From a virus (lineage: Duplodnaviria; Heunggongvirae; Uroviricota; Caudoviricetes): a stretch of DNA of 14,358 nt. Of the stretch, positions 1 through 14,358 are shown in pieces. The position numbers were made by a program, and so were the translations under genes. Each line of letters begins with the position of its first letter. Within the stretch, counting starts at the first letter, position 1. The stretch lies in IMG/VR virus record IMGVR_UViG_3300030125_000009; one strand, 5' to 3'. Under the pieces are notes generated by a model, which ran no database searches, had not been told where the DNA came from, and saw nothing but the letters and a program-made list of their open reading frames with translations.

Positions 1-646
<646 letters not shown>

Positions 647-688
647 TTAGGATATTGATATGAACATCTAAGCACCTCATTACTGTGC

Positions 689-1333
689 TTAAAAGATGTT
701 ATCCTTACCTGTTAATTTACCTTGAGGAACTTTAGTGAGCTCCATCCGATAAAATGCTTTTATCATATTTACAAATGGCTCATATGGTGAATATTCGTTG
801 TCTTGTTTAGTAACGGTGTCTGTCATTGTCCTGATGTAGTCTGCGCTTACCACGTTGTTGTATTCTGTTGCGAAGCAGCATAACAACGTCAGAACATGCT
901 CTGTCGTTATTTCGATCCAGTTGATGTTGAAAAACTCATCGCCTTTTTTATCGTGTTCGGAATCGAAGATGCTTTGGTGGAGGATGTATTTGCCGGATTC
1001 CTTGCGCGGTAACTTGATCGCTTTCTGGCGTTCCAGTTCCTTGTAAATCTGCATTGCTTCAATTAGTACCGGCCTGCCGTTCATGAAGGGATCGCGCAAC
1101 CTTACACGCTGGCCAACTCGACCGGTAATAAAGCTGTTTTCCTCTTCCACCAGCACGATAAAACCCTTTTCCTCTTTTTCTCGCAATTCGCGCAGCAGCT
1201 GGAGTTCCATATCGCGGCGGCGTTCAGGGTAGCTGGTCCGCTCAGCCATTATCAGCTCGTTGTTGATCCATGCAGCAGTCATTGACGCCGGTTTACCGAC
1301 GCTCATCGAAACAACGCATATTTTCTTATCCAT
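689..1333 (-). CDS. Hypothetical protein, 214 aa (position corresponds to P1 mat, not verified)
   Basis: Open frame with ATG at 1333-1331 preceded by GGGGG Shine-Dalgarno (tatagggggcgctATG). The track's longer 263-aa version starts at GTG 1480 with no ribosome-binding site. No motif I recognise. Confidence 0.55.
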   Translation of the reverse strand: MDKKICVVSMSVGKPASMTAAWINNELIMAERTSYPERRRDMELQLLRELREKEEKGFIVLVEEENSFITGRVGQRVRLRDPFMNGRPVLIEAMQIYKELERQKAIKLPRKESGKYILHQSIFDSEHDKKGDEFFNINWIEITTEHVLTLLCCFATEYNNVVSADYIRTMTDTVTKQDNEYSPYEPFVNMIKAFYRMELTKVPQGKLTGKDNIF

Positions 1334-1522
1334 AGCGCCCCCTATAAAAAAGAAAAGCCACCAGCGGCGGCTTAGCAATACAACTGAAGGTAGCGCCCGG
1401 TACTCAGACTGTGCCGTCCATGGAATATTTGAAAAGGGATCCATCCGTACCGGGCATGTGATGATTCTGACTGAAGTCACTTGTCAGTTGTCAATTATTT
1501 CAGATTAAAAATAATATATTTA

Positions 1523-2083
1523 TTAGTGCATGATGTTTGCCATCTCATAGGCGTCAGCCAGCAATTCCATCTCTGACTTGTTCAGCAAGGTGAATTCTTT
1601 CTTGCCTCCAACCACACCATCGGCATGAACGGGGACCAGCCAGGGGTATTTTTCTCTTACTTCAGCCGGTGCTGCATGCTAGTGGTGCCATCTACAAAGG
1701 GGCAATTGCTTTTTGTGACAACCCGGCGCGGTACGACCGGAGATATGGTGCAGAGACACCTCTTCAGATATTACTCCATGCATGTAGCAGGCAATGCAGG
1801 GGAGAGCGCCAAGAGCATTGGCGATGCTCCGTTCCTCCGCTGTCGGTGTTCGCCCCTTCAAGCCACGAGATTTTATCTTTACCGCACTTTTCCGCGTTTT
1901 GCTGGCTGGTGGGCGCTCTTTCTGTTTAGCGATACGACGGTCGATAGAATCCCGCATTTTCTGATATTGCGATTCTCGCCAGGCGGGGTCAGCCAACTTT
2001 TCCCGTTGCCGAGCGATCGCTCGTTCTCTGGCTGCCTTCTGCCACTCGCGGCGCTGTTCAAGTTTTTGTTCGATTGTTTTCAT
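1523..2083 (-). pseudogene. ref: ref (P1 recombination enhancement function, HNH-type nuclease) interrupted by in-frame TAG amber codon at 1681-1679; truncated product 134 aa, full frame 186 codons
   Basis: Translation from ATG 2083 gives MKTIEQKLEQRREWQKAARERAIARQ...CHKKQLPLCRWHH, then TAG, then the same frame continues HAAPAEVREKYPWLVPVHADGVVGGKKEFTLLNKSEMELLADAYEMANIMH to TAA at 1525-1523. The 186-codon total matches the P1 Ref length I recall. Confidence 0.75.
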
Positions 2084-2088
2084 ATGGC

Positions 2089-2114
2089 AAAAAAAAGGCG
2101 GCCTAATGGCCGCC
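2089..2114 (-). terminator. Intrinsic-terminator-like hairpin plus U8 in the ref 5' leader, ending 5 nt before the ref ATG
   Basis: Minus strand reads GGCGGCC-AUUA-GGCCGCC followed by UUUUUUUU then GCCAU-AUG; a 7-bp GC stem and a U-run are seen directly. Confidence 0.5.
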
Positions 2115-2174
2115 AATGATGTCAAGGAGTGAAGTAATGGCAACGTCTTCGTAGTTGACAAAAACTGCGGCTAA

Positions 2175-2198
2175 ATTATAGCAATCAATTAGAGCAAT
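2175..2198 (-). promoter_or_regulatory. C1 operator (Op2-like, 14/17 match to ATTGCTCTAATAAATTT) overlapping a perfect TATAAT -10 element upstream of ref
   Basis: Minus strand ATTGCTCTAATTGATTG at 2198-2182 followed by GCTATAATTTAG (TATAAT at 2180-2175); a second weaker overlapping operator-like copy ATTGCTATAATTTAGCC. Confidence 0.65.
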
Positions 2199-2304
2199 GG
2201 TAGATATTTTGTTTCTCGCGAATCACATTTTTTCACTTCAGTACCTGTGTGCTATACTCCTTCTTGATTGATTGGATGCGGAATACAAACCCGCTCTTTT
2301 GTGC

Positions 2305-2332
2305 AGCCTGGCTCCTTGCCAGGCTTTTTTTT
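2305..2332 (+). terminator. Rho-independent terminator on the plus strand (8-bp stem agcctggc/gccaggct, loop tcctt, T8 run)
   Basis: Hairpin and T-run seen directly; on the minus strand it is preceded by an A-run, so it is unidirectional for plus-strand transcripts. No convincing plus-strand gene lies upstream. Confidence 0.6.
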
Positions 2333-2642
2333 ATTTCATCATGGAAGCTGTTAACGCTTTGGACCTTGCTGAACTGATTGAAAGGGCATTGTTTACCTTA
2401 CCCAGGAGTTCGCCAAATTCCCCCATCACTCTAGTAAGCCCGCGCCGCGCTTCCTCCTCCGTTGCATTCATCACAAAATGTTCAGCACTCCGCATGCTTT
2501 TAACGGGGAACGCAACAGATATCGAGTCGATATCAGGCATCCTATCGCTCAACTTTACGGTGACAATGACAGATGGCGACAGAATATTAGTGCTTACAGA
2601 CAGCACTACATATTTTCCGTCGATGTTGAAATCCTTTCTCAT
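2331..2642 (-). CDS. Hypothetical protein, 103 aa, in the cre-ref intergenic position (position of P1 cra, not verified)
   Basis: ORF with ATG at 2642; a C1 operator match in the same orientation sits just upstream (2659-2675). An antisense plus-strand ORF (2272-2763) overlaps it, so coding strand is not certain; weak ribosome-binding site. Confidence 0.35.
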   Translation of the reverse strand: MRKDFNIDGKYVVLSVSTNILSPSVIVTVKLSDRMPDIDSISVAFPVKSMRSAEHFVMNATEEEARRGLTRVMGEFGELLGKVNNALSISSARSKALTASMMK

Positions 2643-2658
2643 ATGCCACCATAAATAT

Positions 2659-2675
2659 CAAAAAATTAGAGCAAT
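2659..2675 (-). promoter_or_regulatory. C1 operator-like site (13/17 match) upstream of the 103-aa ORF
   Basis: Minus strand ATTGCTCTAATTTTTTG; the first 11 positions match the consensus exactly. Confidence 0.5.
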
Positions 2676-2692
2676 CATTTACGTGTTAATGG

Positions 2693-3724
2693 CTAATTGC
2701 CATCTTCCAGCAGGCGCACCATTGCCCCTGTTTCACTATCCAGGTTACGGATATAGTTCATGACAATATTTACGTTGGTCCAGCCACCAGCTTGCATGAT
2801 CTCCGGTATTGAAACTCCGGCACGGGCCATATCTCGCGCGGCTCCGACACGGGCACTGTGTCCAGACCAGGCCAGGTACCTCTGTCCAGAGTCATCCTTA
2901 GCCCCGTAAATCAATCGGTGAGTTGCTTCAAAAATCCCTTCTAGGGCGCGAGTTGATAGCTGGCTGGTGGGTGATGGCGAGGCAACACCATTTTTTCTGA
3001 CCCGGCAAAACAGGTAGTTATTCGGATCATCAGCCACACCAGAGACAGAAATCCATCGTTCGACCAGTTTAGTTACCCCCAGGCTAAGTGCCTTCTCTAC
3101 ACCTGCGGTGCTAACCAGCGTTTTCGTTCTGCCAATATGGATTAACATTCTCCCACCGTCAGTACGTGAGATATCTTTAACCCTGATCCTGGCAATTTCG
3201 GCTATACGTAACAGGGTGTTATAAGCAATCCCCAGAAATGCCAGATTACGTATATCCTGGCAGCGATCGCTATTTTCCATGAGTGAACGAACCTGGTCGA
3301 AATCAGTGCGTTCGAACGCTAGTGCCTGTTTTGCACGTTCACCGGCATCAACGTTTTCTTTTCGGATCCGCCGCATAACCAGTGAAACAGCATTGCTATC
3401 ACTTGGTCGCTGCAGCCCGGACCGACGATGAAGCATGTTTAGCTGGCCCAAATGTTGCTGGATAGTTTTTACTGCCAGACCGCGCGCCTGAAGATATAGA
3501 AGATAATCGCGAACATCTTCAGGTTCTGCGGGAAACCATTTCCGGTTATTCAACTTGCACCATGCCGCCCACGACCGGCAAACGGACAGAAGCATTTTCC
3601 AGGTATGCTCAGAAAACGCCTGGCGATCCCTGAACATGTCCATCAGGTTCTTGCGAACCTCATCACTCGTTGCATCGACCGGCAATGCAGGCAAATTTTG
3701 GTGTACGGTCAGTAAATTGGACAT
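2693..3724 (-). CDS. cre: Cre site-specific tyrosine recombinase, 343 aa (variant)
   Basis: Translation MSNLLTVHQNLPALPVDATSDEVRKNLMDMFRDRQAFSEHTWKMLLSVCRSWAAWCKLNNRKWFPAEPEDVRDYLLYLQARGLAVKTIQQH... is Cre. It differs from the canonical Cre I remember at three positions (GVASPSPTSQ versus GVAAPSATSQ; C-terminal GN versus GD). Confidence 0.97.
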   Translation of the reverse strand: MSNLLTVHQNLPALPVDATSDEVRKNLMDMFRDRQAFSEHTWKMLLSVCRSWAAWCKLNNRKWFPAEPEDVRDYLLYLQARGLAVKTIQQHLGQLNMLHRRSGLQRPSDSNAVSLVMRRIRKENVDAGERAKQALAFERTDFDQVRSLMENSDRCQDIRNLAFLGIAYNTLLRIAEIARIRVKDISRTDGGRMLIHIGRTKTLVSTAGVEKALSLGVTKLVERWISVSGVADDPNNYLFCRVRKNGVASPSPTSQLSTRALEGIFEATHRLIYGAKDDSGQRYLAWSGHSARVGAARDMARAGVSIPEIMQAGGWTNVNIVMNYIRNLDSETGAMVRLLEDGN

Positions 3725-3731
3725 TTGACAC

Positions 3732-3953
3732 TCAGATAATGGTTTTAAGTAAAGTGTACAGGATCGGCTCTGCCTTTACCTGTTTATGGTTCTCGTCATA
3801 GAAACGCCAACGACCGCGACTGCGTTCTATCTTTTCTTCACCGCGCGATAATGACAGTTGACAACTATCACGATCAAACCCTTTTGCCCGCCAGTAACCA
3901 CGATTTTTCTCAAGCTCAAGATGAGTGGACACTTTAGCAGCTGAATATCCCAT
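3732..3953 (-). CDS. Hypothetical small basic protein, 73 aa, immediately upstream of cre (stop 7 nt before the cre ATG)
   Basis: ATG at 3953 preceded by AGAGGTGAAAA (good Shine-Dalgarno); product MGYSAAKVSTHLELEKNRGYWRAKGFDRDSCQLSLSRGEEKIERSRGRWRFYDENHKQVKAEPILYTLLKTII is rich in R/K. No homolog recognised from memory. Confidence 0.5.
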   Translation of the reverse strand: MGYSAAKVSTHLELEKNRGYWRAKGFDRDSCQLSLSRGEEKIERSRGRWRFYDENHKQVKAEPILYTLLKTII

Positions 3954-4142
3954 TTTTCACCTCTGATTGATTGGTGGTGCTAAGTGCGCTACGCGAAATC
4001 TGGAGCACTAACACTGCCAACATTTCGCAGATTTTACGTAGCGCAACCTTGATCAAATGATCAAGTGATCACTATTTGACCTGATAAGGTATTGAGCTGT
4101 ATGGATTTACAGGTAAATTGATCATGTTCAATAACCCTTAAG

Positions 4143-4176
4143 ATAACTTCGTATAATGTATGCTATACGAAGTTAT
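4143..4176 (-). other. loxP: loxP recombination site (34 bp, perfect: 13-bp inverted repeats ATAACTTCGTATA flanking spacer ATGTATGC)
   Basis: Exact string ataacttcgtataatgtatgctatacgaagttat; spacer orientation is consistent with cre on the minus strand. Confidence 0.97.
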
Positions 4177-4219
4177 CAGGTCCGAAGAGGAGTTTACGTC
4201 CAGCCGCGCACAAAAATCA

Positions 4220-4236
4220 AGAATTATTAGAGCAAT
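4220..4236 (-). promoter_or_regulatory. C1 operator (Op99-like, 15/17 match), minus-strand orientation, between loxP and coi
   Basis: Minus strand ATTGCTCTAATAATTCT; its orientation points toward loxP and cre. Confidence 0.6.
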
Positions 4237-5761: not shown

Positions 5762-6628
5762 TTATTCAGCCGCCACCGGTTTTAACAAGCCAGCATCGAG
5801 CAGTTTACGCGTCAACCACTGCTGGCCTTTACCCGTTAATTGAGGCGTCAACCGTATCTGGTAGCCATCTTCATCATCCAGCACCACTTCTTTCACCGTG
5901 AAATACCCCGCGTTGATGTACTGCTGGAACGGCACATTTTTACGTCCACCGGACGCTATCAGGATGCCGTTCTCCCGTAACCAGACAAACAGCGCGTTTT
6001 GCTTAAGTCCAACAACCTTTGCAAAATTCCCAATCAGGATCCCTTTAGCTACTGATACCCGGTCGGCAAAATCGACTTTAGGAGCGGCGGCCACCAGCTG
6101 CTGATTTAGCTGGTGGGCTTTCTGTTCCAGAAGCTGCTTTTGTTCAGCCAGTTCGGCAGCCAGGCGCAGAGCTTCTGGAAGCGTCTGGGGGATTGCAACC
6201 GGTTGCTGTTCTTTTTGCCGGAAGTAGCTGTCTTCCAGTTTTTCAAAGAATGCCCATGCCTGATCGGTTTCGAGCATTTTAGCGTGGCGGGCTGCGCCGC
6301 GTTCCGTCCAGAGGATGAGTGAGCGGGCTTTAGGAGAGATAGGATTTTGTGAGTTACTTAAAGTCACCCGCAAATTGTTCAAATCATCTCCAATAACTTT
6401 ATAGAAATGCTTGCCTTCACAAAAACGTTCAGCATTACGGGAAAAGTTCTTCTTGATGTTATCCGCATCTGTCCCATACCCCTTAGCAAGGATCTTAGTT
6501 GTCACTACACGCACTCCCTGCCACTCTAGAACGGGAATTTCATCCGGCTGACTTTGAACAACCACCAGTTCTGATTCCTGAACTAAAGGTGTATTAATTT
6601 TTTCAGATTTAACGTTAGTAGCTTTCAT
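5762..6628 (-). CDS. ant2: Ant2, 288 aa, in-frame internal initiation product of the ant ORF
   Basis: Internal ATG at 6628 (MKATNVKSEK...) has its own strong Shine-Dalgarno AAGGAGG 8 nt upstream, in the same frame as ant1; this mirrors the P1 ant1/ant2 arrangement. Confidence 0.6.
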   Translation of the reverse strand: MKATNVKSEKINTPLVQESELVVVQSQPDEIPVLEWQGVRVVTTKILAKGYGTDADNIKKNFSRNAERFCEGKHFYKVIGDDLNNLRVTLSNSQNPISPKARSLILWTERGAARHAKMLETDQAWAFFEKLEDSYFRQKEQQPVAIPQTLPEALRLAAELAEQKQLLEQKAHQLNQQLVAAAPKVDFADRVSVAKGILIGNFAKVVGLKQNALFVWLRENGILIASGGRKNVPFQQYINAGYFTVKEVVLDDEDGYQIRLTPQLTGKGQQWLTRKLLDAGLLKPVAAE

Positions 6629-6877
6629 TCTGTGTGCCTCCTTGCGTGTTTCGGCTGCGACGGTTGCGTAATTCAGATGCCCCTGTTCGAGCAGGTATTC
6701 ACGGATATCAGACAGCAGGATACGGTGAACAGCGTTCTTGTCCTTTCTCCGGTAAAGTTGTTTGGTGATCATGAAGTAGTTGGCAATAACGCCAGGTATA
6801 TCCCTGGTACTGATACAGGCAGAGTGCTGTTCAATTGCCTCGATCATCTCTTCACGGGTAACTAACGATGTTCTCAT
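5762..6877 (-). CDS. ant1: Antirepressor Ant1, 371 aa (ORF6N/KilA-N-like N-terminal region plus Ant C-terminal domain); a second in-frame start gives Ant2
   Basis: ATG at 6877 preceded by AGGAGGG; the icd stop overlaps it (ATGA). Antirepressor-family domain assignment is from memory of the family, not from a search. Confidence 0.8.
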   Translation of the reverse strand: MRTSLVTREEMIEAIEQHSACISTRDIPGVIANYFMITKQLYRRKDKNAVHRILLSDIREYLLEQGHLNYATVAAETRKEAHRMKATNVKSEKINTPLVQESELVVVQSQPDEIPVLEWQGVRVVTTKILAKGYGTDADNIKKNFSRNAERFCEGKHFYKVIGDDLNNLRVTLSNSQNPISPKARSLILWTERGAARHAKMLETDQAWAFFEKLEDSYFRQKEQQPVAIPQTLPEALRLAAELAEQKQLLEQKAHQLNQQLVAAAPKVDFADRVSVAKGILIGNFAKVVGLKQNALFVWLRENGILIASGGRKNVPFQQYINAGYFTVKEVVLDDEDGYQIRLTPQLTGKGQQWLTRKLLDAGLLKPVAAE

Positions 6878-7095
6878 AGTCCCTCCTGAGCAGAAGCGTT
6901 AACAGGGAGGCACCAGTAACTGAGAGAATTGCGTGAATCAGTGGAAAAACGGGCAGAGAAAATACATGGGGCGTCAGGAAGCTGAGAGCGGGCCTCATCT
7001 TCTGTCGGTGCAATAACGAAGTGATAGTGACGTTTTTGGCAGGAGTAAAAGCGCCAGATAAATTCAGGATGAGTTGGGGTAGGGATAGTAGCCAT
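6874..7095 (-). CDS. icd: Icd-like protein (interference with cell division), 73 aa, translationally coupled to ant1
   Basis: ATG at 7095 preceded by AAGGAGG; product MATIPTPTHPEFIWRFYSCQKRHYHFVIAPTEDEARSQLPDAPCIFSARFSTDSRNSLSYWCLPVNASAQEGL; TGA stop overlaps the ant1 ATG; 73 codons equals the P1 icd length as I recall. Confidence 0.7.
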   Translation of the reverse strand: MATIPTPTHPEFIWRFYSCQKRHYHFVIAPTEDEARSQLPDAPCIFSARFSTDSRNSLSYWCLPVNASAQEGL

Positions 7096-7151
7096 ATTGG
7101 CAGCCTCCTTAGACGTTGGTATGTAACCACCGCAGAAGAGACCAATCTTGC

Positions 7152-7231
7152 TGGCGGTGGACTGTACGGAGTTGGCCTTACTGGCGTCCAAGGTAACCAG
7201 CCTACCCGAAGGTAGCCCCATACAGCCCACC
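7152..7231 (-). ncRNA. c4: Candidate c4-like antisense repressor RNA (about 80 nt, tRNA-like terminal stem, 3' GCCA)
   Basis: On the minus strand, GGUGGGCUGUAU pairs with GUACAGUCCACC as a 12-bp terminal stem, followed by GCCA; internal 5-bp hairpin with UUCG loop; the segment CCUUGGACG is complementary (9 bp, one G-U) to CGUCUAAGG, which overlaps the icd ribosome-binding site. Boundaries are approximate. Confidence 0.45.
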
Positions 7232-7260
7232 ATTGTAGAGGTGTGCGTGTACGCCGATAC

Positions 7261-7283
7261 AAAAAAAAGACGCGAGCGGCGTC
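7261..7283 (-). terminator. Rho-independent terminator downstream of pacB (hairpin GACGC-CGCUC-GCGUC plus U8)
   Basis: Hairpin followed by an 8-U run on the minus strand, about 150 nt after the pacB stop. Confidence 0.6.
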
Positions 7284-7414
7284 TGTATCGCCTTAGACTT
7301 AAGCGGGAGGCCAATCCCGGCACCCGTTTTAATGAGGTGCCTGATAAGCATAAACCGAAAATGCCTCAAGGCGCAAGAGGTCAGGTTCAATGTAACATCG
7401 GCAGTTAAAAAACA

Positions 7415-12772: not shown

Positions 12773-14260
12773 ATGAAAATGACAAGTATTCAACAACGTG
12801 CAGAGCTTCATCGTCAAATCTGGCAAATTGCTAACGATGTCAGGGGTTCGGTCGATGGATGGGATTTTAAGCAATACGTTCTGGGCGCACTTTTCTACCG
12901 TTTTATCAGCGAAAATTTTTCCAGTTATATTGAAGCCGGTGATGACAGTATCTGTTATGCGAAACTGGATGACAGCGTAATTACTGATGACATTAAAGAC
13001 GATGCCATCAAAACTAAAGGCTACTTCATCTACCCCAGTCAGCTTTTCTGCAACGTAGCTGCGAAAGCAAATACCAATGACAGACTGAACGCAGATTTAA
13101 ACAGCATCTTCGTTGCTATCGAAAGTTCTGCTTACGGCTACCCTTCAGAAGCAGACATCAAAGGTTTGTTTGCTGATTTCGATACCACCAGTAACCGCCT
13201 GGGTAACACCGTTAAAGATAAAAATGCCCGCCTGGCTGCGGTTCTGAAAGGGGTTGAAGGGTTAAAACTTGGTGACTTCAACGAACATCAGATTGACCTG
13301 TTCGGTGATGCCTATGAGTTCCTGATTTCTAACTATGCGGCAAATGCCGGTAAGTCAGGCGGTGAGTTCTTTACACCGCAGCACGTCTCCAAGCTGATTG
13401 CACAACTGGCTATGCACGGGCAGACCAACGTTAACAAAATCTACGACCCGGCAGCGGGTTCCGGCTCACTGTTGTTGCAGGCTAAAAAGCAGTTTGATAA
13501 CCATATCATCGAAGAAGGCTTTTTTGGTCAGGAAATCAACCATACAACCTATAACCTGGCACGTATGAACATGTTTTTGCACAACATCAACTACGACAAG
13601 TTTGATATCAAGCTGGGTAATACACTGACTGAGCCACACTTCAGAGATGAAAAACCGTTTGATGCCATCGTTTCTAACCCGCCGTATTCGGTGAAATGGA
13701 TTGGCAGCGATGACCCGACGCTGATTAACGATGAACGTTTTGCCCCGGCTGGCGTCCTGGCCCCCAAATCCAAAGCTGACTTTGCGTTTGTACTACATGC
13801 GCTGAACTATCTTTCGGCCAAAGGTCGTGCTGCGATTGTCTGCTTCCCGGGTATTTTTTACCGTGGCGGCGCGGAGCAGAAAATCCGTCAGTATCTGGTC
13901 GATAATAACTATGTCGAAACCGTGATTTCACTGGCACCGAACCTGTTCTTTGGCACCACTATTGCTGTAAACATTCTGGTGCTGTCTAAACATAAAACGG
14001 ATACCAAAGTTCAGTTTATTGATGCCAGCGAACTGTTCAAAAAAGAAACCAACAACAATATCCTGACCGATGCCCATATCGAACAGATTATGCAGGTATT
14101 TGCCAGCAAGGAAGATGTTGCTCATCTGGCGAAATCTGTTGCGTTTGAGACTGTTGTCGCGAATGACTATAACCTGTCGGTGAGCAGCTATGTGGAAGCG
14201 AAAGATAACCGCGAAATTATCGATATCGGTGAGCTGAATGCAGAGCTGAAAACCAGGTGA
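12773..14260 (+). CDS. hsdM: Type I restriction-modification N6-adenine DNA methyltransferase subunit HsdM, 495 aa, 3' end truncated by IS1
   Basis: N-terminus [25 protein letters not shown]..., AdoMet-binding motif [10 protein letters not shown] and catalytic NPPY motif (VSNPPYS). The stop codon TGA at 14258-14260 lies inside the IS1 terminal inverted repeat. Confidence 0.88.
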
Positions 14261-14358
14261 TGCTGCCAACTTACTGATTTAGTGTATGATGGTGTTTTTG
14301 AGGTGCTCCAGTGGCTTCTGTTTCTATCAGCTGTCCCTCCTGTTCAGCTACTGACGGG
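14256..14358 (+). mobile_element. IS1, left end (IRL) and start of insA, partial (runs off the right window edge)
   Basis: ggtgatgctgccaacttactgatttagtgtatgatggtgtttttgaggtgctccagtggcttctgtttctatcagctgtccctcctgttcagctactgacggg matches the IS1 terminus and insA 5' region as I remember them. Confidence 0.9.
14311..14358 (+). CDS. insA: IS1 InsA, N-terminal fragment (GTG start)
   Basis: GTG GCT TCT GTT TCT ATC AGC TGT CCC TCC TGT TCA GCT ACT GAC GGG translates to (M)ASVSISCPSCSATDG, the InsA N-terminus. Confidence 0.8.
   Translation, partial: MASVSISCPSCSATDG

What the first reader, a model, noticed from the sequence alone, without database searches (positions are those of the whole stretch)
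1523..2083. ref carries an in-frame amber (TAG) codon that would truncate the nuclease at residue 134 of 186
The reading frame is intact on both sides of a single TAG at 1681-1679, and the frame totals 186 codons. The truncation falls directly after the CRWHH motif of the HNH-like region, so the product is likely inactive unless the host suppresses amber codons. This could be a natural pseudogenisation, a classical amber mutation, or a sequencing error.
Basis: seen in the sequence. Interest (0 to 1): 0.45.

Follow-up and report, generated by a model that had tools for sequence, protein, structure and literature searches.

The report
Natural amber-stop pseudogene of P1 ref
The stop codon inside the phage P1-type ref nuclease gene is real, but it is an ordinary natural knockout allele that already circulates in wild E. 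coli P1-derived plasmids and reached this element by recombination.

Summary
P1 and every intact relative examined have CAG (Gln) there, so the lesion is one C>T change. Gln135 is invariant in 45 diverse Ref proteins, and no family member examined ends at this point.

It is not a sequencing error or a laboratory amber. The same TAG, on an identical 3' part of the gene, occurs in 17 E. coli RefSeq records (all nine carrier records examined are flagged pseudogenes by PGAP), 14 PLSDB plasmids, 2 IMG/VR contigs and 4 gut-metagenome contigs. An intact parent haplotype exists in a gull isolate.

The window's copy is a mosaic. Positions 647-1806 (mat plus the 3' part of ref with the TAG) match the carrier lineage, and 1807 onward matches a different P1-like background. 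Here TAG is the only lesion; most carriers also have a 4-nt deletion.

The 134-residue product lacks His153 and three C-terminal helices, so it should be nuclease-dead. No suppressor tRNA was found, and cre and doc use TAG as their true stops. Two complete carrier plasmids are degraded, virion-less P1 remnants, which fits relaxed selection.

Verdict: ordinary, already annotated elsewhere, low interest.

The parts
1523..2083 (-). ref pseudogene: the full 186-codon Ref frame plus TAA, interrupted by one amber codon
   Evidence: collinear with P1 ref (NC_005856 2077-2637) with no indels.
1679..1681 (-). In-frame TAG (amber) replacing the invariant CAG Gln135; one C>T change at gene nt 403
   Evidence: Gln135 is invariant in 45 diverse Ref proteins; every C..HH motif found among the 120 representatives is followed by Q.
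1679..2083 (-). The part still translated: a 134-residue product with the basic N-terminal DNA-binding region (1-76) and the first 58 residues of the nuclease domain, ending at His134
   Evidence: domain limits from PMC4330346; model elements H82-92, H97-100, E109-113, E126-130, H131-134.
1523..1678 (-). Codons 136-186 plus TAA, no longer translated. They encode helix 140-145, the His153 loop, and helices 161-167 and 171-181. The amino-acid sequence is still identical to P1.
   Evidence: 13 of the 31 family-invariant columns lie here.
1625..1627 (-). CAT codon for His153, the Zn-coordinating active-site histidine, downstream of the stop
   Evidence: Read from the sequence; role from PMC4713147 and PMC4330346.
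2175..2203 (-). P2ref promoter (-10 TATAAT at 2180..2175, -35 at 2203..2198) overlapping the C1 operator Oref (2198..2182, ATTGCTCTAATTGATTG). Mapped from the P1 annotation; the operator and -10 are identical to P1.
   Evidence: P1 features; gap-free alignment, offset 101.
2116..2143 (-). Predicted P1ref promoter mapped from P1, identical to P1
1515..1532 (+). C1 operator Omat overlapping the natural end of ref, conserved with P1. It belongs to mat control.
647..1806 (.). Recombinant tract shared with the TAG-carrier lineage (mat plus the last ~277 nt of ref, including the TAG). The breakpoint lies between 1757 and 1807.
   Evidence: 2 mismatches to the AW1.7 carrier in 647-1806 against 97 in 1807-4224. 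The reverse holds for NZ_CP099352: 36 mismatches in 824-1806 against 2 in 1807-3750. Fisher p = 1e-14 and 2e-15.
689..1444 (-). mat (maturation control, 251 aa), intact, inherited with the TAG tract

Best explanation
This is a natural loss-of-function (nonsense) allele of the P1-type ref gene, which encodes a RecA-dependent HNH endonuclease.

Shown:
- One C>T change turned the invariant Gln135 codon CAG into TAG.
- The same change, on the same linked 3' markers (327G, 453C, 519A), is present in many wild P1-derived plasmids, so the window's allele is identical by descent with theirs.
- An intact parent haplotype with CAG still exists.
- The window's copy is a mosaic. A tract carrying mat and the 3' part of ref came from the carrier lineage, and the 5' part of ref and the genes beyond it come from another P1-like background.

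Inferred:
- The promoters, the C1 operator and the start codon are unchanged, so the gene is probably still transcribed when C1 repression lifts.
- Translation should stop after His134 and give a 134-residue protein. That protein keeps the basic N-terminal DNA-binding region but lacks His153 and three helices of the globular domain, so it cannot act as the RecA-dependent nuclease.
- ref is dispensable for P1 lysis and lysogeny and acts in the lytic cycle. At least two carrier plasmids are virion-less P1 remnants. The allele therefore most likely persists under relaxed selection and moves between P1-like elements by homologous recombination.
- In this window it is caught at an early stage, with the stop as the only lesion.
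For: - TAG at codon 135 with an otherwise intact frame; CAG in P1 and in intact relatives.
- Gln135 is invariant and no family member ends there.
- Exact TAG context in 2 IMG/VR contigs and 4 metagenome contigs, 17 E. coli RefSeq records and 14 PLSDB plasmids, from the USA, Canada, China, Japan, Switzerland, France, Czechia and New Zealand.
- PGAP labels the gene 'frameshifted; internal stop' in all nine carrier records examined.
- All carriers are identical to the window from gene nt ~302 to 561. Their 5' parts differ: a 4-nt deletion at nt 68-71 in most, an extra W35 opal stop in L007, and a P1-like 5' half in L010.
- Intact parent haplotype in NZ_CP040069.
- Mosaic map with Fisher p about 1e-14.
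- Regulatory region identical to P1 at Oref and the -10 element.
- His153 and His134 coordinate the catalytic Zn; H153A removes almost all nuclease activity (PMC4713147). Deleting ref has no measurable effect on the lysogenic or lytic cycles (PMC4330346).
- The model (mean pLDDT 90.6) places the stop before helix 140-145, the His153 loop and helices 161-167 and 171-181.
- The complete carrier plasmids NZ_CP081764 and NZ_CP145673 lack virion genes and are full of IS elements and cargo.
- About 21% of PLSDB records that match ref cover less than 80% of it, and many broken Ref products are in the protein database, so ref loss is common.
Against: - The window's exact ref sequence (this 5' part plus TAG) was not found in any collection, so read support for this particular assembly cannot be checked.
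- The downstream 51 codons carry no amino-acid change relative to P1, and the carriers show no variation in the 3' 243 nt. The allele is therefore young, and decay in this copy is not demonstrated.
- Whether the window's own element is a degraded remnant or a working phage-plasmid is unknown. Its pacA, pacB, lpa, c1 and cre are intact.
- Loss of activity is inferred from point mutants and domain deletions. No one has assayed Ref(1-134).
Confidence: 0.87

Rival explanations
1. Adaptive loss. Ref is costly to the host that carries the plasmid-prophage, because it increases killing by DNA-damaging agents such as ciprofloxacin. On this view null alleles such as TAG135 are positively selected and spread by recombination, rather than drifting neutrally.
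For: - Deleting ref restores survival of P1 lysogens on ciprofloxacin to the non-lysogen level, and ref+ lysogens reach a lower stationary-phase density (PMC4713147).
- Several independent lesions were seen: TAG135, W148 amber in NZ_CP099352, W35 opal in L007, the 4-nt deletion, and further frameshifts, deletions and junction fusions.
- The TAG tract has entered at least three 5' backgrounds.
- About one fifth of matching plasmids lack most of ref.
Against: - Most listed P1-like records still annotate a full-length Ref family protein, and the family is conserved across Enterobacterales.
- The two carriers examined in full are generally degraded elements in which many genes are broken. Neutral decay explains that equally well.
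- No comparison with the loss rate of neighbouring dispensable genes was made.
Confidence: 0.2
2. Separation-of-function allele. The 134-residue product is stable and keeps a useful activity of the N-terminal domain (DNA binding, SOS induction, slowing of growth) without the nuclease.
For: - The N-terminal 76 residues alone (Ref deltaC110) bind DNA and induce SOS more strongly than wild type, with little long-term toxicity (PMC4713147).
- In the window, residues 1-134 carry no other lesion, and the promoter and operator are intact.
Against: - Most carriers of the same TAG also have a frameshift at codon ~23 or a stop at codon 35, which destroy the N-terminal domain. The truncated product is therefore not maintained by selection in the lineage where the allele is common.
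- Half a globular Zn domain is likely to misfold.
Confidence: 0.08
3. Leaky or suppressed gene. Full-length Ref is still made, either in an amber-suppressor host (supE inserts Gln, which would restore the wild-type protein exactly) or through low-level near-cognate readthrough.
For: - CAG>TAG is the change that a Gln-inserting suppressor repairs perfectly (established genetics, my own knowledge).
- The downstream frame is intact and identical to P1 in protein sequence.
Against: - No tRNA gene in the window or in a complete carrier plasmid.
- cre (TAG C, the same 4-base context) and doc end in TAG in this window, so general amber suppression would extend them.
- The stop is not conserved. It occurs on one haplotype only, and Gln is invariant elsewhere.
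- Carriers accumulate further lesions.
- Wild E. coli rarely carry amber suppressors (my own knowledge; not tested here).
Confidence: 0.04
4. Sequencing or assembly error, or a laboratory amber mutant of P1.
For: A single-base difference is the commonest kind of sequencing error, and classical P1 genetics used amber mutants. The window's exact sequence is not in any collection searched.
Against: - The identical TAG with identical linked markers occurs in more than 20 independent assemblies from different laboratories, countries and sample types.
- The window shares a 1.16-kb tract with those carriers.
- The window is only 94.8% identical to P1 in ref, and it carries an ant/icd insertion and a type I R-M gene that the P1 reference record lacks at these positions. 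It is not the laboratory phage.
Confidence: 0.02

Closest known systems
[quoted passage not shown]
   Same: Same locus (c8-ref-mat), same length frame, same promoters and C1 operator. There are 9 amino-acid differences from P1 outside codon 135, and residues 136-186 are identical.
   Different: Codon 135 is TAG instead of CAG. The translated product stops at His134 and lacks His153 and the C-terminal three helices.
ref pseudogenes annotated by PGAP as 'frameshifted; internal stop' in E. coli P1-derived plasmids, e.g. NZ_CP073625 (AW1.7), NZ_CP081764 (CX21), NZ_CP061751, NZ_CP145673, NZ_AP018397
   Same: Same TAG135 on an identical 3' part of ref, and nearly identical mat downstream (2 mismatches in 1160 nt). 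They share descent with the window's allele.
   Different: Those copies also carry a 4-nt deletion at gene nt 68-71 and the 5' markers 147C, 207A, 243G, 257C and 277A. The window has the 5' part of the common intact haplotype and no second lesion.
Intact ref of plasmid NZ_CP040069 (E. coli A1_181, gull, Alaska)
   Same: Carries the markers linked to the TAG haplotype (147C, 207A, 243G, 257C, 277A, 327G, 453C, 519A), so it represents the intact parent.
   Different: It has CAG at codon 135, plus two private changes (150A, 359A).
ref of E. marmotae plasmid NZ_CP099352 (the closest whole-window relative)
   Same: Nearly identical to the window from 1807 to 3750 (2 mismatches). It is also a nonsense pseudogene of ref.
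   Different: An independent lesion: W148 TGG>TAG at gene nt 443, with CAG at codon 135.

Membership tests
Ref family (PF16786, RecA-dependent HNH nuclease) | Significant sequence match to the family profile and to P1 Ref | tested here: met
   PF16786 168.6 bits (cutoff 26.9) with Gln restored; PDB 3PLW E 6e-119 over residues 1-186.
Ref family (PF16786, RecA-dependent HNH nuclease) | Genomic position between c8 and mat under a C1-controlled promoter | tested here: met
   Collinear with the P1 annotation; Oref and the P2ref -10 element are identical.
Ref family (PF16786, RecA-dependent HNH nuclease) | Uninterrupted ORF encoding the whole globular domain, including the Zn-coordinating His134 and His153 | tested here: not met
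   TAG at codon 135; the His153 codon (1627..1625) lies after the stop; 13 of 31 invariant columns are lost. It is therefore a pseudogene of the family, not a functional member.
Ref family (PF16786, RecA-dependent HNH nuclease) | RecA-dependent cleavage of DNA | not testable with these tools
   Biochemical assay needed. Loss is inferred from H153A and H134A/H153A data (PMC4713147).
Natural nonsense pseudogene | Premature stop where homologues have a conserved sense codon | tested here: met
   Gln135 is invariant in 45 aligned sequences and is the residue after the HH pair in every motif variant among the 120 representatives; CAG in all intact P1-like copies examined.
Natural nonsense pseudogene | Lesion reproducible in independent genomes (not an artefact) | tested here: met
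   17 RefSeq records, 14 PLSDB plasmids, 2 IMG/VR contigs and 4 metagenome contigs.
Natural nonsense pseudogene | Further decay (secondary lesions) in the lineage | tested here: met
   A 4-nt deletion in most carriers and a W35 opal in L007. This holds for relatives only; the window itself has no second lesion.
Programmed readthrough or suppressor-dependent gene | Suppressor tRNA available in the element | tested here: not met
   No tRNA in the window or in the complete carrier plasmid NZ_CP081764. The host chromosome could not be examined.
Programmed readthrough or suppressor-dependent gene | Stop codon conserved among homologues | tested here: not met
   The stop is confined to one haplotype; all other family members have Gln. 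cre and doc use TAG as their real stops.
Laboratory P1 amber mutant | Laboratory P1 backbone | tested here: not met
   94.8% identity to P1 in ref, only 47% of the window covered by P1, and carriers are wild isolates.

The most novel reading that the evidence does not exclude
Loss of ref is recurrent and adaptive in P1-derived plasmids, because Ref sensitises the carrier cell to DNA-damaging antibiotics. On this reading the TAG135 tract is a beneficial null allele passed between P1-like elements by homologous recombination, and the window shows it newly introduced into an otherwise intact ref background.
Probability: 0.15. Interest if true: 0.45.

Novelty: already known. Interest (0 to 1): 0.12.

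Why it matters
It matters little as a discovery. Public RefSeq annotation already flags the same internal stop as a pseudogene in related plasmids, and ref is known to be dispensable for P1.

It has practical value for annotation: this gene should be marked as a pseudogene, not split into a 134-residue "Ref family protein".

It also gives a small, clean example of a null allele moving between phage-plasmids by recombination, with the intact parent, the stop-only form and the further-decayed forms all on record.

If ref loss proved to be selected, it would link a phage gene known to enhance ciprofloxacin killing with the evolution of P1-derived plasmids in clinical and livestock E. coli. That is not shown here.

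Tried and rejected
- **Source of the window.** The look-up of encoding contigs with the 134-residue product found nothing. An exact 43-mer scan of species-representative genomes found nothing. No record in phages, plasmids or E. coli genomes is 100% identical over ref; the best is 99.3%. The source remains unknown.\n- **Dcm hot spot for the C>T change.** Rejected. The wild-type context is CACCAGC, which is not CCWGG. The unrelated W148 amber of the E. marmotae plasmid does lie in CCTGG.\n- **Independent recurrence of TAG135 in the window.** Rejected, because the window also shares 327G, 453C, 519A and the mat allele with the carriers.\n- **Suppressor tRNA.** None in the window or in a complete carrier plasmid.\n- **Ref proteins that naturally end at residue 134.** None. 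The short family members are frameshifts, junction fusions, internal deletions or truncations elsewhere.\n- **Frameshifts in phage vB_EcoM-673R5 ref.** Four scattered single-base deletions. I read these as sequencing errors in that record; they are unrelated to this allele.\n- **Literature on P1-like phage-plasmids.** The paper checked (PMC9603915) does not discuss ref and does not list it among the 21 extremely conserved genes.

Full report
**Observation**

The minus strand of window 2083..1523 reads as 134 sense codons, TAG at 1681..1679, 51 more sense codons and TAA. With Gln placed at the stop, the 186-residue protein matches Pfam PF16786 (RecA-dependent nuclease, 168.6 bits against a cutoff of 26.9). 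It also matches the P1 Ref crystal-structure sequence 3PLW end to end (E 6e-119).

The window as a whole is a P1-type block. On the minus strand it reads hsdM', phd/doc, pdcB, lpa, pacA, pacB, icd/ant, c1, coi, cra, cre, c8, ref, mat. P1 itself, the closest ref (NZ_CP195366, 99.3%), NZ_AP024522, NZ_CP099352 and NZ_CP040069 all have CAG at codon 135. The lesion is therefore a single C>T change at gene nt 403.

**Is it an artefact or a private mutation?**

No. An exact 26-mer spanning the TAG is present in two IMG/VR contigs and four human-gut metagenome contigs. An exact 69-mer is present in 17 of 410 matching E. coli RefSeq records and in 14 of 384 matching PLSDB plasmids. The 3' 243 nt of the window's ref is 100% identical in 17 RefSeq records.

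The carriers come from sheep, beef and cattle-plant isolates, humans, river water and an NCTC strain, across at least eight countries. In all nine carrier records examined, PGAP annotates the gene as a pseudogene, "frameshifted; internal stop". Some carriers are repeat sequencings or probably clonal (AW1.7 twice, LP-26-E1-261 twice, six CX/CT strains), so the number of independent lineages is nearer ten. That is still ample to exclude a sequencing error or a laboratory amber mutant.

**History of the allele**

A table of variable sites shows that all TAG carriers are identical to the window from about gene nt 302 to the end. They share 327G, 453C and 519A, which the common intact alleles lack.

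Their 5' parts differ:
- Most carriers have 147C, 207A, 243G, 257C and 277A plus a 4-nt deletion at nt 68-71.
- L007 has the same markers without the deletion, but with a second stop (W35 TGA).
- L010 has a P1-like 5' half up to nt 343.
- The window has the 5' part of the common intact haplotype.

An intact gene carrying both the 5' and the 3' markers with CAG exists in a gull isolate (NZ_CP040069). This is effectively the parent haplotype.

Extending the comparison into the flanks gives a clear mosaic:
- Window 647-1806 differs from the AW1.7 carrier at 2 sites, against 97 sites in 1807-4224.
- The E. marmotae plasmid shows the reverse: 36 sites in 824-1806 against 2 sites in 1807-3750.
- Both contrasts have Fisher p of about 1e-14.

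The window therefore acquired mat and the 3' part of ref, with the TAG, from the carrier lineage by homologous recombination. The breakpoint lies between 1757 and 1807. Independent recurrence of the mutation is excluded by the linked markers. The lack of any variation among carriers in the 3' part, and the unchanged amino-acid sequence of codons 136-186, show that the allele is young.

**Consequence for the protein**

Published work (PMC4330346 and PMC4713147) describes Ref as follows:
- It has a basic, unstructured N-terminal DNA-binding region (residues 1-76) and a globular HNH domain (77-186).
- The active site is formed by histidines that coordinate Zn.
- H153A removes almost all nuclease activity, and H134A/H153A is the standard nuclease-dead form.

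In an alignment of 45 diverse full-length Ref proteins (49-96% identical to the first sequence), Gln135 is invariant. Of the 31 invariant columns, 13 lie after residue 134, including His153. None of the 120 best family representatives ends at ...WHH.

A confident model (mean pLDDT 90.6) places the stop just after strand 126-130 and the short 131-134 turn. The stop removes helix 140-145, the His153 loop, and helices 161-167 and 171-181.

Loss of nuclease activity is thus a strong inference, though it has not been measured for this truncation. The promoters, the C1 operator Oref and the start region are essentially identical to P1, so the truncated product is probably still expressed when C1 repression is lifted.

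**Suppression**

There is no tRNA gene in the window or in a complete carrier plasmid. In this window cre (TAG C, the same context as the ref amber) and doc terminate with TAG. The stop is confined to one haplotype.

A Gln-inserting suppressor, or rare near-cognate readthrough, would restore the wild-type protein exactly. This is general knowledge and was not tested here. Nothing in the data suggests that the element relies on it.

**Why it persists**

Deleting ref has no measurable effect on P1 lysogeny or lytic growth (PMC4330346). The gene is expressed in the lytic cycle and makes lysogens more sensitive to ciprofloxacin (PMC4713147).

The two carrier plasmids examined in full (NZ_CP081764 and NZ_CP145673) are degraded P1 remnants. 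They keep repA/par, the immunity region, cre and phd/doc, but have no virion genes, many IS elements and unrelated cargo. NZ_CP145673 keeps the same IS-bounded block as the whole window.

Loss of ref is common in general:
- 141 of the 657 PLSDB records that match ref cover less than 80% of it.
- The protein database holds many broken Ref products.
- The closest whole-window relative has an independent W148 amber.

Relaxed selection in plasmid-only remnants is the simplest reading. Selection against Ref toxicity is possible but untested. A useful role for the truncated product is unlikely, because most carriers also destroy the N-terminal domain.

**Comparison with what is known, and verdict**

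The gene is a pseudogene of the Ref family. It meets the sequence and synteny criteria and fails the intact-ORF criterion. The same internal stop is already annotated in public records. The only particular feature here is that the stop is the sole lesion, in a recombinant copy.

This is an ordinary, explained feature of low interest. For annotation it should be called a ref pseudogene.

Noticed in passing
window 1-646: End of an IS5-family element. It is 100% identical over 1-652 to an IS5 copy in plasmid NZ_CP081764. The terminal inverted repeat reads on the minus strand at 646..601, with TTAG at 647-650. The element lies 40 nt beyond the mat stop codon.
   Followed up: partly
window 14259-14358 (and hsdM 12773-14260): IS1 left end (GGTGATGCTGCCAACTTACTGAT...) interrupts the type I restriction-modification M subunit gene. 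The ORF is 495 aa here against 518 aa in NZ_AP024522. With the IS5 at the other end, the window looks like a short-read contig broken at IS repeats, and hsdM is probably a second damaged gene.
   Followed up: partly
L001 (NZ_CP099352.1, E. marmotae plasmid), ref gene nt 443: The closest whole-window relative has an independent amber in ref, W148 TGG>TAG. The change lies inside CCTGG, a Dcm methylation site created by the 441C variant (P1 has CCATGG). This fits the classic 5-methylcytosine deamination hot spot.
   Followed up: partly
window 2089-2114, minus strand: A terminator-like hairpin (GGCGGCC-ATTA-GGCCGCC followed by T8) sits between the ref promoters and the ATG at 2083, with no obvious Shine-Dalgarno sequence. 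It is identical in P1. It may limit ref expression.
   Followed up: no
L019 (NZ_LR134222.1, E. coli NCTC11129 chromosome, 4.75 Mb): A P1-derived block (cra-cre-c8-ref pseudogene-mat, then IS elements) lies directly next to cytR/ftsN in a record labelled chromosome. This is either a real integration of a P1 remnant or a misassembly.
   Followed up: no
L023/L024 (NZ_CP081764.1) and L025/L026 (NZ_CP145673.1): Both complete TAG-carrier plasmids are P1 remnants without virion genes that carry large cargo: ttr, sil and msrAB in one, capsule and polysaccharide synthesis genes in the other. NZ_CP145673 also holds a second, partial Ref-family fragment at 65485-65748.
   Followed up: partly
window 5762-7323: A KilAC-domain antirepressor (371 aa) and an Icd-like gene lie between c1 and pacB, where the P1 reference record has no aligned sequence. 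This is part of why P1 covers only 47% of the window.
   Followed up: no
L004 (ON470615.2, phage vB_EcoM-673R5), ref: ref in this phage record has four scattered single-base deletions and is not annotated. These look like sequencing errors in that record rather than biology.
   Followed up: no
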